Origin: Carcharhinus amblyrhynchos
Taxonomy: Eukaryota
Assembly (NCBI GenBank): GCA_965287045.1
Contig: OZ336889.1
Coordinates: forward strand, 44,082,001 to 44,146,000
Length of the DNA: 64,000 bases
Direction of reading: 5' to 3'
Position numbers: made by a program. Positions 24,001-27,000 of this stretch are shown here, piece after piece; within the stretch, counting starts at the first letter, position 1, and each line of letters begins with the position of its first letter.

Positions 24001-27000
24001 TTGCCCGCTTTAGATGACGGGGTTTCGCATGCATACTTAATATTCAATGACGTTGTCAAGTTTGCAGCCTCTTAAGGAGAGCTTTATAAAGAGCCCAGGA
24101 ACGCACTGTGTCAAGAAGTATTTCAGTCTGACCCTCACTCGGACCTTCATCATGACTGTTCGAGTTCTTGCCGCACTAATGCTCTGTTTTCACAGTAGGT
24201 GTTGCGTTAACTTTCACTCTTGTTGCTATTTTTACTGCATTTATTGTCTATGTTTGACTTTAACGGAGCTGAATTGCAAACAATATAAACAATTGTCGAG
24301 CCTGACAGGTCAATAACTTATTTCACCAGGTACCATCGGAGATATTGTCCTGACCCAGCCAGGATCCATTTCAACATCCCCGGGAAAGACTGTCAAGATC
24401 ACCTGTACCGCGTCCGGAGGCAGCATTGACGACTACTACACGAGCTGGTACTGGCAGAAACCCGGCAGAGCCCCTGTGCTTGTTTGGGACGAGAGCTCTG
24501 ATACGGCTTCGGGTATTCCAGATCGATTCGCCGGGTCTGTGGACTCATCGAGTAACAAGATGCATTTAACCATCACCAACGTTCAATCGGAGGACGCCGC
24601 CGATTATTACTGTTATGCAGCTCGTACCTTCGGGAAAGGAACCAAGCTGAACCTGGGCAGTAAGTAAATTATTTACCGCGTTATTGCGGACACTGAAGAA
24701 AAAACACTTTAAACATATTGGCTTTACAGTATGAATTATAGAAAATCACGGCTACTGTCATTTAAATGCACTTAGACAGACCTGGTGAATCAGTGTCATG
24801 TGCCTTGCAAAAGTTAGTCAGTGCGACCAATTTTGCAGGCAATATCTAGGCTTTTAAACGTGTCCGGGACAATTTTTTCTCAGATGAAACCATATCATCC
24901 GGTTTTAAATAGGGCAGAGGGAAAGTGAAACGAGGTTCACTGGGATCTTCCTGAATGTTCTGGCGGAAATTTGCTCCATATTCTTCCAGCGAGATGGAAG
25001 CTGAAATTTCCACCTTCCGGCTAGTCCATAGTCGGAGAACATCAATTGAATCTCATTGGAAGAGGGCGGAAGGGGTGGGATAGGATAGATTGTTTGGCAA
25101 AGGGGGCTGTTAGCACTGTTGCATCTTACCTGTATTAATAAGGCGGTCAGAACCATGGTAAAATGGAGAAATATTCTAAGAATGAAACTCGATTATGTAG
25201 GAAATTGACTCAGGACGCGCTCTTTTCAAAGAAAAGCCTTTGGCGTCATTCTGTGTTCCAGAATTCCAAGGTTATTAAAGTCCCACAGAGTTTTGGAGTT
25301 TGATTGCGCCTGGTAAAAAGCTAAATTACAAAATCAAAAGTTCATTCCACTTCGAGCACATTAATTCCCGTCCTCGGATTGGTAGCGTTAATGTGATAAT
25401 TGGCTGCAACTCAATCTCGTCTCCAAACTGAGTGAAACCGTTCAGACAAAAAAAATTCTCAATTTTCCATACCCCCCCTACATCCAGAATGCAATGAAAG
25501 TATTTTACCAGCGAGATGGAAGTTGAAATTTCCACGTTCCCGTCAGCTGATAACTTGCGAATTGAATTTCATTGCGAGAGAGCAAAAGGGCGCGATAGGA
25601 TATATTGTTTGGCCAAGGGGCTGTTCGCACTGCTGCATCTTATCTGTATTAATAGGGCGAGCAGAATCATGGTGAAATGGAGAAATATTCTAAGAAATAA
25701 ACACAAATATGTCGGAAATTGACTCAGTGCGCGCTCTTTTCAAAGAATGCGTTTCGCCTCTCAGTTTTCCAAGATTCTAAGAACCCCACCCCCATTGTTT
25801 TTTAGACGGATAGCGCCGGTGAAAAGGCTAAATTGCAAAATCATTCCACTTAGAGCAATAATGCACATTTATCCCCATTCTCGGATTGGTAACATTAATG
25901 TGACAACTTGCTGCAACTCAATCTCGTCTCCAAGCTCAGTGAAGACGTTCGGAGGATAAAAAAGATTTTCAATAATCCATACCACCTCCCTCCCCCGCCC
26001 GCATAATACAATAAAAATACCAGCGATCAGCTAACGATAATAGTCAGCGCTCTTCTATTTTCGGCATAACCGAATAACAAACATCTGTAACTGACATTAC
26101 ATCTACTTCCTTAACATGTGACTGGCTCATTAACTTCCGTCTTGATGAATTGCATCCGCATATCTCGCATCAGGCGTTCAGATTGCTGCGCCTTTTTTTT
26201 GTTCACTCGTTGAACCTTCCTCCTGGTTCTATGATCAGCCTGAGAGGATTTGTATTACTGAAAATTCGCGTACTCCATTGCATTGTGACTTTTTTTCCCC
26301 CGGCGGTATCACGGAGATAAGGATAAGATAGAAAAGGGAAAATGCTCTGTAATTCCGCGAATAATACAGACCTTGGTGTCGACGCATTTTTGCGCAGATT
26401 TATACGAATGGCAATGATTGCTCAATAATCCCATGGGATTTCAGATATTTCTGTATTATGATGCTCAGTTCAATTCTGGAGTATTATAAAACTCCGATAA
26501 GCGGGGTTAAATGCACTTGTCAAATTGCACGATTCAGTCTCCCAGTTATTGTGCCAACAACCTTATATGTCCCAAGGCGAAATTCTCCGGACTGCAATGG
26601 ATTGTATAGAATTGGGGAAAATGCAGTAACGTGTCAACATTTACTTCTTTGCTTTACATTCAATAAAAAAACACCGAGAGTCGGGCATTTGAGCTCGTTC
26701 TTGTACCGCGTGGTGTGAATGGTTAGCCAAACAGGCACCAGGTTGTGACATCCTGTCTTCAACCATATTACCCGGGGTAAAAATTCATTGTTACTATCAT
26801 GGGAATATTTCTTTTTAAGTATAAAAGCAAAGAACTTGCATTAGCATAGCGCCCATCACGACCTCAGGGTATCCGAGCCTGTTTTAGTCAATTGTGTGTC
26901 GTTTGTTTTAATGTCAGCCATGCTTGTAAGAAATGGGGTAGCTTATTTCCGCAGAATAAAGACCCACAAACCTCAATCAGCAGTTAAGCGATTGAAGCCG

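What the first reader, a model, noticed from the sequence alone, without database searches (positions are those of the whole stretch)
24611..24631. Near-identical duplicate clusters carry different hard-wired CDR3 junctions (9 vs 5 aa)
Seen: clusters 1 and 2 are identical for 78 nt up to the FR3 Cys codon and differ by one base in FR4. Yet CDR3 is GCTGTAGCTAGAAGCGGAATATCCACC (3312-3338) in cluster 1 and TATGCAGCTCGTACC (24614-24628) in cluster 2: a 12-nt in-frame length difference plus substitutions. Cluster 3 has 11 aa. Inference: either independent germline RAG joining after duplication of an unjoined cluster, or junction-focused remodelling of already-joined genes by indel or conversion. 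Either would be a germline CDR3-diversifying process. A 5-aa L-chain CDR3 is unusually short.
Basis: partly seen in the sequence, partly recalled or inferred. Interest (0 to 1): 0.75.

Follow-up and report, generated by a model that had tools for sequence, protein, structure and literature searches.

The report
Shark lambda light-chain clusters, old CDR3s
Two neighbouring, almost identical shark antibody light-chain genes carry different built-in binding loops (9 and 5 residues), but both loops are old versions shared with other sharks and rays, so the difference was inherited and reshuffled between gene copies and not newly made here.

Summary
The window holds three germline VJ-joined immunoglobulin lambda (type II) light-chain clusters of a shark close to Carcharhinus. 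Clusters 1 and 2 are tandem copies, 93.8% identical over 11.2 kb. Their CDR3s are 27 and 15 nt, preceded by 78 identical nt, with one FR4 difference.

The 5-residue CDR3 of cluster 2, with its FR4 lysine, is identical in a sandbar shark, a sawfish and a devil-ray lambda chain. Near-identical versions occur in further sharks and rays; in all, 12 of 128 named chondrichthyan lambda proteins have 5 residues. The 9-residue type is equally widespread. So both junctions are far older than the 6% divergence of the flanks.

CDR1 and CDR2 differ as strongly as CDR3, at synonymous sites too (CDR 6/17.8 against FR 2/57.3). The effect is therefore not junction-focused. I found no RSS or split V/J.

Best reading: old CDR cassettes are kept by selection while gene conversion or unequal crossing-over homogenises or reshuffles the rest. 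A 95-nt identical tract in the C exons of clusters 2 and 3 shows such exchange directly.

This is a new member of a known kind; interest is moderate.

The parts
1..11229 (+). Copy 1 of the tandem duplicated block (cluster 1 with flanks)
   Evidence: Self-BLAST and MAFFT: matches 21281-32519 with 6.2% mismatch and 46 indel events
21281..32519 (+). Copy 2 of the tandem duplicated block (cluster 2 with flanks)
2663..2670 (+). Octamer ATGCAAAT upstream of cluster 1 (TATAAA at 2783-2788). The same motifs lie at 23965-23972 and 24085-24090 in cluster 2.
   Evidence: Motif scan. Promoter role is inferred from position only.
2850..2898 (+). Cluster 1 leader exon (ATG to phase-1 donor, GT at 2899)
   Evidence: The donor was chosen because it reproduces the leader end of sandbar shark lambda P0007. 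The exons were not joined.
3028..3369 (+). Cluster 1 VJ exon, germline-joined (mature V 3039-3368; donor GTAAGT at 3370)
   Evidence: Pfam V-set 9e-19; open frame with Cys23 and Cys at 3309-3311
3312..3338 (+). Cluster 1 CDR3, 27 nt, AVARSGIST (9-residue class)
6498..6820 (+). Cluster 1 C-lambda exon with stop (AATAAA at 6906)
   Evidence: Pfam C1-set 1.5e-24
24152..24200 (+). Cluster 2 leader exon
   Evidence: The leader end matches sandbar P0001.
24330..24659 (+). Cluster 2 VJ exon, germline-joined (mature V 24341-24658)
   Evidence: Pfam V-set 3.1e-15; 89% identical to sandbar shark lambda P0007
24614..24628 (+). Cluster 2 CDR3, 15 nt, YAART (5-residue class), followed by FR4 with Lys (24635-24637)
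   Evidence: The same CDR3 plus FGKG occurs in P0007, P0034 and P0064.
27810..28132 (+). Cluster 2 C-lambda exon with stop (AATAAA at 28218)
   Evidence: Pfam C1-set 1.5e-24
44354..44704 (-). Cluster 3 VJ exon, germline-joined, of another V subfamily (mature V 44693-44355; CDR3 44417-44385, 11 residues)
   Evidence: It falls in a clade of 11-residue CDR3 rows with SH-aLRT 98.
42122..42444 (-). Cluster 3 C-lambda exon with stop
   Evidence: Pfam C1-set 6.7e-23
27938..28032 (+). 95-nt tract of the cluster 2 C exon identical to cluster 3 (42316-42222), inside exons that otherwise differ by about 25%. I read it as a gene-conversion tract.
   Evidence: The longest run was reached in 0 of 20000 permutations. 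Mismatches are 29/112, 4/122 and 21/84 in the 5', central and 3' thirds.

Best explanation
The window is part of the immunoglobulin lambda (type II) light-chain locus of a shark close to Carcharhinus. It holds three complete clusters (leader, germline-fused VJ exon, C exon). Each has its CDR3 fixed in the germline, so each is expressed without V-J recombination.

The 9- and 5-residue CDR3s of clusters 1 and 2 were not produced after the local duplication. They are two old, selectively maintained junction classes of this gene family, each with its own FR4 residue (Arg or Lys). The classes are older than the split of sharks and rays.

The rest of the two clusters is 94-98% identical because ectopic gene conversion and/or unequal crossing-over acts among the joined clusters. 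Either it homogenised the flanks, introns, frameworks and C exons of two old paralogues while selection kept the CDRs. Or it brought a V-exon segment of the short-CDR3 lineage into a recent duplicate. I could not decide which direction applies.

Shown: the anatomy, the pattern of divergence, the cross-species identity of the CDR3s, and a conversion tract in the C exon. Inferred: selection on the CDRs, conversion as the mechanism for the V exon, and expression.
For: 1. Identity of the locus. V-set and C1-set domains are present in all three clusters. The best named relatives are sandbar shark lambda chains at 87-89% identity.

2. Age of the junctions.
- Among 128 named chondrichthyan lambda proteins, 12 have a 5-residue CDR3 and 1 has 6.
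- YAART plus FGKG, as in cluster 2, occurs in Carcharhinus plumbeus P0007, Pristis P0034 and Mobula P0064.
- Close variants occur in Narcine, Hypanus, Pristiophorus, Heterodontus, Cetorhinus, Heptranchias and a second Pristis gene. Callorhinchus has a different 5-residue CDR3 (KASDT).
- Among the 93 tree rows, the first CDR3 residue is Tyr or Phe in 11 of 13 short rows against 1 of 36 nine-residue rows. In sharks FR4 has Lys in 5 of 6 short rows against 2 of 16 nine-residue rows.
- The motif AV-x-x-SG-I/V-x-T of cluster 1 recurs in many sharks and rays.

3. Orthology. On a tree of the V body without CDR3 and FR4 (93 rows, 92 columns), seven short-CDR3 genes of seven shark and ray species form one clade (SH-aLRT 86). 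The short label needs 6 changes against 12.4 in shuffles, and 0 of 500 shuffles were as low. A single clade of those seven plus cluster 2, P0007 and Heptranchias P0008 is not rejected (AU p 0.51, with P0001 left out).

4. The excess divergence does not come from selection on new point mutations. Synonymous differences are 6 per 17.8 sites in CDRs and 2 per 57.3 in FRs (Fisher 0.0019), against 6.2% in non-coding DNA. The shared Arg of CDR3 uses AGA in cluster 1 and CGT in cluster 2.

5. Exchange between clusters.
- Cluster 2 has 0 differences from sandbar P0001 in FR1, CDR1 and FR3 but 7+1 in CDR3/FR4. It has 0 differences from sandbar P0007 in CDR3/FR4 but 3 in CDR1 and 5 in FR3. So all four combinations of V-body type and CDR3 class exist.
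- One clade for all 11 short rows is rejected (AU p 0.0005, lnL difference 85).
- Pristis P0021 and Amblyraja P0056 (short) sit with nine-residue genes in a clade of SH-aLRT 95; within it, P0056 pairs with Rhinoraja P0060 at 96.
- The cluster 2 C exon shares a 95-nt identical run with cluster 3 (0 of 20000 permutations).
- Divergence along the duplicate is patchy: 3.0% in the leader intron, 11.8% in the first 380 nt of the J-C intron, 2.2-4.0% around the C exon.
Against: - No donor for the V-exon differences lies in the window, and no other part of this genome could be searched.
- All cross-species evidence is at protein level. It comes from automatic gene models or old cDNA and genomic clones. 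cDNAs may carry somatic mutations, clones may be chimaeras, and a gene model does not itself prove a germline join.
- The four-combination argument rests on two sandbar shark entries.
- The tree has only 92 columns, and most relevant branches have SH-aLRT 82-94, below the starred level.
- Because one search does not reject cluster 2 as a member of the short lineage, no cassette transplant is needed for cluster 2 itself. Homogenisation of 11 kb around three short CDR patches is then required, which demands many tracts plus selection.
- FR synonymous divergence (2/57.3) is lower than in the adjoining intron (binomial 0.03). A single imported tract does not explain that easily.
- The chimaera 5-residue CDR3 (KASDT) lacks the aromatic first residue and may be an independent origin, so recurrent shortening is possible in principle.
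Confidence: 0.72

Rival explanations
1. Independent germline RAG joining. An unjoined V-J-C cluster was duplicated, and each copy was then fused separately in germ cells with different trimming. That would give 9 and 5 residues.
For: RAG-type germline joining is documented for nurse shark kappa-like NS4 genes, where joined and split genes are close relatives (Lee et al. 2000, PMC2193156, passages read). The two junctions differ in length and sequence, as independent joints would.
Against: - The window holds no split V or J and no RSS beside any V or J.
- Reviews state that all lambda genes are joined in all species studied.
- Both junctions, with their FR4 residues, are present in distant species. 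They therefore predate the roughly 6% divergence of the copies.
- CDR1 and CDR2, which RAG does not touch, are as diverged as CDR3.
Confidence: 0.03
2. Recent local remodelling. After the duplication, one copy suffered a 12-nt in-frame deletion (or the other an insertion). Fast substitution in the CDRs followed, by positive selection or an AID-like germline mutation process. The result converged on sequences seen elsewhere.
For: A 12-nt indel is ordinary for this duplicate: 9 of 46 indel events are 8 nt or longer. Removing four codons from the 9-residue CDR3 leaves a sequence two residues away from the 5-residue one. A different 5-residue CDR3 in Callorhinchus (KASDT) hints that short junctions can arise more than once.
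Against: - Exact identity of CDR3 plus FR4 Lys with sandbar shark, sawfish and devil ray would need repeated convergence.
- Synonymous sites in the CDRs are about five times more diverged than non-coding DNA. Selection on amino acids does not explain that.
- The Arg codons differ at two positions.
- The V body of cluster 2 fits inside the old short-CDR3 clade.
Confidence: 0.1
3. Assembly or cloning artefact. The cluster 2 V exon, or the sandbar shark reference entries, are chimaeras of near-identical paralogues, so part of the mosaic pattern is not biological.
For: Tandem copies 94% identical over 11 kb are hard to assemble. The four-combination pattern depends on two old sandbar shark entries.
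Against: - The two copies differ by 689 substitutions and 46 indels spread over the whole block, and they have different spacers. They are not collapsed haplotypes.
- Both V exons are intact, with canonical splice sites.
- The short and nine-residue classes are each seen in many independent genome assemblies.
- The C-exon tract and the batoid incongruences do not depend on the sandbar entries.
Confidence: 0.05

Closest known systems
Sandbar shark (Carcharhinus plumbeus) lambda light-chain genes. Hohman et al. [quoted passage not shown] I saw the title only, in the reference list of PMC2192082; the paper is not held.
   Same: Same isotype, the same leader, and 87-89% identical V. The C exon of cluster 1 differs from P0007 at 3 of 106 residues. 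VJ is fused in the germline. The 5-residue CDR3 of cluster 2 is identical to that of entry P0007, named AAC59643.1.
   Different: The window comes from another genome or another set of paralogues. V-body type and CDR3 class are combined the other way round. Whether that paper already discusses CDR3 classes or conversion could not be read.
Nurse shark NS4 (kappa-like) germline-rearranged genes (Lee, Fitch and Hsu 2000, PMC2193156; passages read)
   Same: Light-chain clusters with VJ fused in the germline and differing junctions between copies.
   Different: In NS4 the joined genes have close split relatives, and the joints can be derived from V and J flanks, which indicates recent RAG activity in germ cells. 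Here no split relative exists in the window, and the junctions are old and shared between species.
Skate type I and II light chains, all germline-joined (Anderson et al. 1995, PMC2192082; abstract in the search listing and reference list only)
   Same: Diversity comes from many pre-joined clusters and not from rearrangement.
   Different: Different species and partly a different isotype. The body text was not available to me, so I could not compare its treatment of CDR3.
Nurse shark germline-joined sigma-2 light chain, the preferred partner of the germline-joined IgM1gj heavy chain (reviews PMC5192425 and PMC4279169; passages read)
   Same: A fully predetermined light-chain binding site encoded in the germline.
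   Different: A different isotype. For the short-CDR3 lambda, no partner, stage of expression or specificity is known from anything I saw.
Concerted evolution by gene conversion in tandem immunoglobulin and other multigene families (general knowledge, recalled)
   Same: Patchy identity, tracts of about 100 nt, and trees that disagree between segments.
   Different: Here the homogenised parts surround three short patches (the CDRs) that stay old. This is the pattern expected when selection opposes homogenisation. Selection was not tested here.

Membership tests
Cartilaginous-fish immunoglobulin lambda (type II / NS3) light-chain cluster | One V-set domain exon and one C1-set exon in a compact leader-V(J)-C cluster | tested here: met
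   Pfam V-set 9e-19, 3.1e-15 and 3.2e-18; C1-set 1.5e-24, 1.5e-24 and 6.7e-23. Exon layout.
Cartilaginous-fish immunoglobulin lambda (type II / NS3) light-chain cluster | Closest named relatives are lambda chains of sharks and rays | tested here: met
   Sandbar shark lambda at 87-89% identity. Nearly all other named hits are 'immunoglobulin lambda-1 light chain-like' or 'immunoglobulin light chain' of sharks, rays and chimaeras. The exceptions are one mammalian hit, a few named 'hypothetical protein' or 'Ig-like domain-containing protein', and three rows without an organism name.
Cartilaginous-fish immunoglobulin lambda (type II / NS3) light-chain cluster | V and J fused in the germline, with no intervening sequence or RSS | tested here: met
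   A continuous open frame runs from FR1 through FR4 to a GTAAGT donor in all three clusters. No RSS-like site lies beside them.
Cartilaginous-fish immunoglobulin lambda (type II / NS3) light-chain cluster | Transcribed and paired with a heavy chain | not testable with these tools
   No expression data were available. An octamer, a TATA box and poly(A) signals are present.
Recent RAG-mediated germline joining (as in nurse shark NS4) | Close split relatives with RSS in the same gene family | tested here: not met
   The window holds none. Reviews say all lambda genes are joined. The rest of the genome was not searchable.
Recent RAG-mediated germline joining (as in nurse shark NS4) | Joint derivable from V and J coding ends with trimming and P or N nucleotides | not testable with these tools
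   No unjoined V or J is available for comparison.
Gene conversion / concerted evolution among tandem clusters | Short tracts whose divergence departs sharply from that of their surroundings | tested here: met
   CDRs 20/75 against FRs 9/243. CDR synonymous 6/17.8 against FR 2/57.3. A 95-nt identical run joins the C exons of clusters 2 and 3 (0 of 20000 permutations).
Gene conversion / concerted evolution among tandem clusters | Different segments of the gene give incompatible trees | tested here: met
   The AU test rejects one clade for the 11 short-CDR3 rows on the V-body tree (p 0.0005). Caveat: with P0001 removed, 10 of the short rows can form one clade (p 0.51).
Gene conversion / concerted evolution among tandem clusters | An identified donor for the V-exon patches | tested here: inconclusive
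   Cluster 3 shares the CDR1 states of cluster 1 but is not a donor for CDR3. Other clusters of the genome could not be fetched.

The most novel reading that the evidence does not exclude
The 5-residue-CDR3 lambda chain is an invariant, germline-hard-wired light chain. It has been kept almost unchanged since before sharks and rays diverged, and a 5-residue form also exists in a chimaera. It is protected from the homogenisation that overwrites everything around it. That would point to a dedicated, conserved job. Examples would be a fixed partner for a particular heavy chain or developmental stage, a surrogate-light-chain-like role in a lineage where the review PMC5192425 says that no VpreB or lambda-5 has been found in fish, or an innate-like specificity.
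Probability: 0.3. Interest if true: 0.65.

Novelty: new member of a known kind. Interest (0 to 1): 0.4.

Why it matters
The case shows how a germline-joined antibody gene family keeps variety without recombination. Old CDR cassettes, the junction included, persist for very long periods while the surrounding DNA is repeatedly homogenised or exchanged. For comparative immunology, the useful lead is a lambda chain with a very short CDR3 that is conserved from sharks to rays. It can be tested directly for expression stage, heavy-chain partner and binding. For genome annotation, the case warns that near-identical tandem immunoglobulin clusters need not be young in their coding patches.

Tried and rejected
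- RSS scan (heptamer with CAC fixed and at most 1 mismatch, 12- or 23-nt spacer +/-1, nonamer with at most 2 mismatches). It gave 3 sites against 0.82 expected from 50 shuffles (maximum 4), at 41403, 57922 and 38487. None lies beside a V or J, so I rejected them as relics.
- Single change-point search for a recombination boundary between 1401 and 5800. The best point was 2117, but the support interval 2039-3162 is too wide to place a breakpoint.
- A 6-nt palindrome in the cluster 1 CDR3, considered as a possible P-nucleotide trace. One such palindrome is roughly what chance gives in 27 nt (my estimate, no call), so I dropped it.
Their cDNA or genomic status is therefore unknown.
- Papers not held: Hohman 1993, Criscitiello and Flajnik 2007, Flajnik 2024. 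Rast 1994 was not sought. Eight literature searches found no statement on conserved lambda CDR3 classes or on conversion among lambda clusters. The key primary papers are outside the library and supplements are closed, so I do not claim that this is unpublished.
- The PDB sequence search listed only antibody fragments and human lambda domains and no shark lambda. I did not pursue it.
- No structure prediction, complex prediction or atlas search was run, because none would bear on the question.
- The collections genome contigs (prokaryotes only), viral contigs and metagenome contigs (both closed) were not used. No other cluster of this genome and no nucleotide sequence from another shark could be compared.
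Full report
**What is in the sequence**

The window has no N. It contains three immunoglobulin light-chain clusters and no other V, J or C element (tblastn).

- Cluster 1 (+ strand): an octamer at 2663-2670 and TATAAA at 2783-2788, a leader exon at 2850-2898, a 129-nt intron, a VJ exon at 3028-3369 ending at a GTAAGT donor, a 3.1-kb J-C intron, a C exon at 6498-6820, and AATAAA at 6906.
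- Cluster 2: the same layout, 21.3 kb downstream (VJ exon 24330-24659, C exon 27810-28132).
- Cluster 3 (minus strand): VJ exon 44704-44354 and C exon 42444-42122. It belongs to another V subfamily, 63-68% identical in protein to clusters 1 and 2.

Pfam gives V-set and C1-set for all six exon translations. In each cluster V and J are one continuous exon. I searched the exons one by one. The leader splice site is inferred only because it reproduces the leader ends of two sandbar shark entries.

**Check of the observation**

- The 78 nt before and including the Cys codon are identical.
- There is one FR4 difference (Arg AGA against Lys AAA).
- CDR3 is 27 nt (AVARSGIST) in cluster 1 and 15 nt (YAART) in cluster 2.
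- CDR3 is 11 residues in cluster 3.

The two clusters lie in a tandem duplicated block, 1-11229 against 21281-32519. It has 689 mismatches in 11153 aligned positions (6.2%) and 46 indel events. The 12-nt CDR3 gap is the only indel in an exon. Nine of the 46 events are 8 nt or longer.

**The difference is not confined to the junction**

Between the two VJ exons the CDRs differ at 20 of 75 aligned nt: CDR1 5/39, CDR2 10/21, CDR3 5/15. The frameworks differ at 9 of 243 (Fisher 5.5e-8).

The excess includes synonymous change. By Nei-Gojobori counting there are 6 synonymous differences per 17.8 sites in the CDRs and 2 per 57.3 in the FRs (Fisher 0.0019). Non-coding DNA differs by 6.2%. The Arg shared by both CDR3s is AGA in one and CGT in the other.

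Selection on new point mutations after a recent duplication would not saturate silent sites. The CDR patches therefore have an older history than the DNA around them, or they were hit by a local mutation process.

Divergence along the duplicate is patchy as well.

| Segment (cluster 1 coordinates) | Divergence |
|---|---|
| Upstream, 1401-2849 | 5.8% |
| Leader intron | 3.0% |
| J-C intron, first 380 nt | 11.8% |
| J-C intron, next 950 nt | 8.8% |
| Last part of the J-C intron | 4.0% |
| C exon | 2.2% |
| Next 2.4 kb | 3.4% |

**Relatives elsewhere**

The cluster 2 VJ exon is 89% and 87% identical to two Carcharhinus plumbeus lambda entries, P0007 and P0001. The cluster 1 C exon differs from P0007 at 3 of 106 residues. 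The window therefore comes from a close relative of that shark, or from that shark itself.

Two exon searches and one profile search returned lambda chains of many sharks, rays and chimaeras. I dropped one mammalian hit and two unnamed hits. Among the remaining 128 stored proteins, CDR3 length falls into discrete classes: 12 have 5 residues, 1 has 6, 113 have 8 to 13, and 2 could not be parsed.

The 5-residue class is as follows.

| CDR3 | Species and entry |
|---|---|
| YAART | Sandbar shark P0007, sawfish P0034, devil ray P0064 (all three identical to cluster 2, FGKG included) |
| FAART | Narcine |
| YSART | Hypanus |
| FAGRT | Pristiophorus |
| YAASI | Heterodontus |
| FTAKT | Cetorhinus |
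| LVSRT | Heptranchias |
| YVAKI | A second Pristis gene |
| KASDT | Callorhinchus (two entries) |

The cluster 1 motif (AV, two variable residues, SG, I or V, one variable residue, T) recurs in Carcharodon, Cetorhinus, Heptranchias, Scyliorhinus, Squalus, Chiloscyllium, Pristis, Mobula and Hypanus. The cluster 3 CDR3 is nearly the same as that of a Scyliorhinus torazame protein.

Among the 93 rows used for the tree, the first CDR3 residue is Tyr or Phe in 11 of 13 short rows and in 1 of 36 nine-residue rows. In sharks FR4 has Lys in 5 of 6 short rows and in 2 of 16 nine-residue rows.

Both junctions are far older than the local duplication. By recalled timetrees the shark-ray split is more than 250 million years old; I did not compute that figure here.

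**History of the V body**

I built a tree from the V domain up to the second Cys, without CDR3 and FR4 (93 rows, 92 columns, quick IQ-TREE).
- Seven short-CDR3 genes of seven species, three sharks and four rays, form one clade (SH-aLRT 86; the ray part scores 95).
- The short label needs 6 changes against 12.4 in shuffles, and 0 of 500 shuffles were as low. The class is therefore largely inherited.
- Starred branches still force at least 3 changes.
- Pristis P0021 and Amblyraja P0056 sit with nine-residue genes in a clade of SH-aLRT 95; within it, P0056 pairs with Rhinoraja P0060 at 96.
- The Callorhinchus short gene sits among other Callorhinchus genes.
- Cluster 2 pairs with sandbar P0001, which has a nine-residue CDR3 (SH-aLRT 94).

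An AU test on the first tree (70 rows) rejects one clade for all 11 short rows (p 0.0005, lnL difference 85). With P0001 left out, one clade of the seven plus cluster 2, P0007 and Heptranchias P0008 is not rejected (p 0.51). Cluster 2 may therefore be a true member of the old short-CDR3 lineage.

A segment table shows a mosaic.
- Cluster 2 and P0001 have 0 differences in FR1, CDR1 and FR3, but 7 in CDR3 and 1 in FR4.
- Cluster 2 and P0007 have 0 differences in CDR3 and FR4, but 3 in CDR1 and 5 in FR3.

All four combinations of body type and junction class exist, which indicates exchange between clusters.

**Direct sign of exchange in the window**

The C exons of clusters 2 and 3 differ at 54 of 318 nt, yet they share a perfect 95-nt run (27938-28032 against 42316-42222). 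In 20000 permutations of the mismatch positions, no run reached that length. Mismatches are 29/112, 4/122 and 21/84 in the 5', central and 3' thirds. In that tract cluster 3 agrees with cluster 2 at both sites where clusters 1 and 2 differ. The introns around the exon do not align. This is the signature of a gene-conversion tract.

**Explanation**

The two CDR3s are old junction classes of the germline-joined lambda family. They persist, presumably under selection, while ectopic conversion or unequal crossing-over makes the rest of neighbouring clusters alike or swaps segments between them.

Two versions remain open.
- Clusters 1 and 2 are old paralogues whose flanks, frameworks and C exons were homogenised.
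- They are recent duplicates, one of which received a segment from a short-CDR3 cluster. The segment would run from CDR1 into the first 1.5 kb or so of the J-C intron, the stretch of raised divergence.

The low synonymous divergence of the FRs compared with the adjoining intron (binomial 0.03) fits neither version neatly.

**Rivals**

- Independent RAG joining after the duplication is disfavoured. No RSS or split segment is present. Reviews state that all lambda genes are joined in every species studied (passages read in PMC5192425 and PMC4279169). Both junctions predate the duplication.
- A recent deletion followed by fast CDR change would need exact convergence on YAART plus Lys in three distant lineages. 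It also does not explain the silent-site excess.
- An assembly or cloning chimaera cannot be excluded without reads. The classes are nevertheless seen in many independent assemblies.

**Comparison with what is known**

Germline-joined lambda (type II, NS3) clusters are textbook for cartilaginous fish, and the sandbar shark lambda with this very CDR3 is a named database entry. The locus is thus a new member of a known kind.

The eight literature searches I ran found no statement that a 5-residue lambda CDR3 is conserved from sharks to rays, or that CDR cassettes are exchanged between joined lambda clusters. The primary papers most likely to say so (Hohman 1993, Rast 1994, Criscitiello and Flajnik 2007) are not held, and supplements are closed. 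I therefore make no claim of priority.

**Limits**

- No other part of this genome and no nucleotide sequence of another shark could be searched.
- All cross-species evidence is protein-level, from gene models or old clones.
- Tree support is moderate because only 92 columns are available.
- Reads were not available.

Noticed in passing
window 27938-28032 (+) and 42316-42222 (-): The C exons of clusters 2 and 3 share a perfect 95-nt run although they differ by about 25% on either side, and their introns do not align. This looks like a gene-conversion tract between clusters of different V subfamilies.
   Followed up: yes
window 19058-19885 (+) and 34531-35430 (-): Open frames with reverse-transcriptase similarity (Pfam RVT_1, 1.9e-15 and 2e-4) lie in the spacers between clusters. 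They are probably LINE-type retroelement remains.
   Followed up: partly
window 3752-4177 / 4289-4684 and 24979-25479 / 25501-25991: Each J-C intron holds an internal direct repeat of about 400-500 nt at 77-81% identity. It lies inside the stretch of raised divergence between the two clusters and may disturb the alignment there.
   Followed up: no
window 37034-38863 and 48684-50540: A 1.8-kb direct repeat at 83% identity flanks cluster 3 on both sides. A 183-nt element at 33998-34180 recurs at 54308-54489 at 98% identity. Their nature is unknown.
   Followed up: no
window 3108-3170 against 44620-44560 (-): At all five CDR1 sites where clusters 1 and 2 differ, cluster 3 carries the cluster 1 base. 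The cluster 2 CDR1 equals that of sandbar entry P0001.
   Followed up: partly
window 3189-3215: The cluster 1 CDR2 region is identical in protein to that of two Heptranchias lambda genes (P0035, and P0024 with one change). The cluster 2 CDR2 is one residue from a Mustelus gene that has an 11-residue CDR3. CDR2 types thus also look old and freely combined with CDR3 types.
   Followed up: partly
window 44417-44385 (-): The cluster 3 CDR3 (GSWGGSPAAYI) is nearly the same as that of Scyliorhinus torazame P0090 (GSWGGSPALYT). Both share the unusual FR4 Glu in GTEL.
   Followed up: no
window 24341-24658: Among solved structures, the hits include human lambda-6 variable domains, ranked about 43rd and 53rd of the 60 listed (1pw3, 1cd0, E about 1e-33). 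As I recall it, these share the extra Ser-rich stretch in FR3. Only the listing was seen, and nothing was fetched.
   Followed up: no
window 6498-6499 and 27810-27811: The two bases that complete the split codon at the J-C junction differ (AT in cluster 1, GT in cluster 2). The residue at the junction would therefore be Asn or Ser, as in sandbar P0007 and P0001 respectively.
   Followed up: partly
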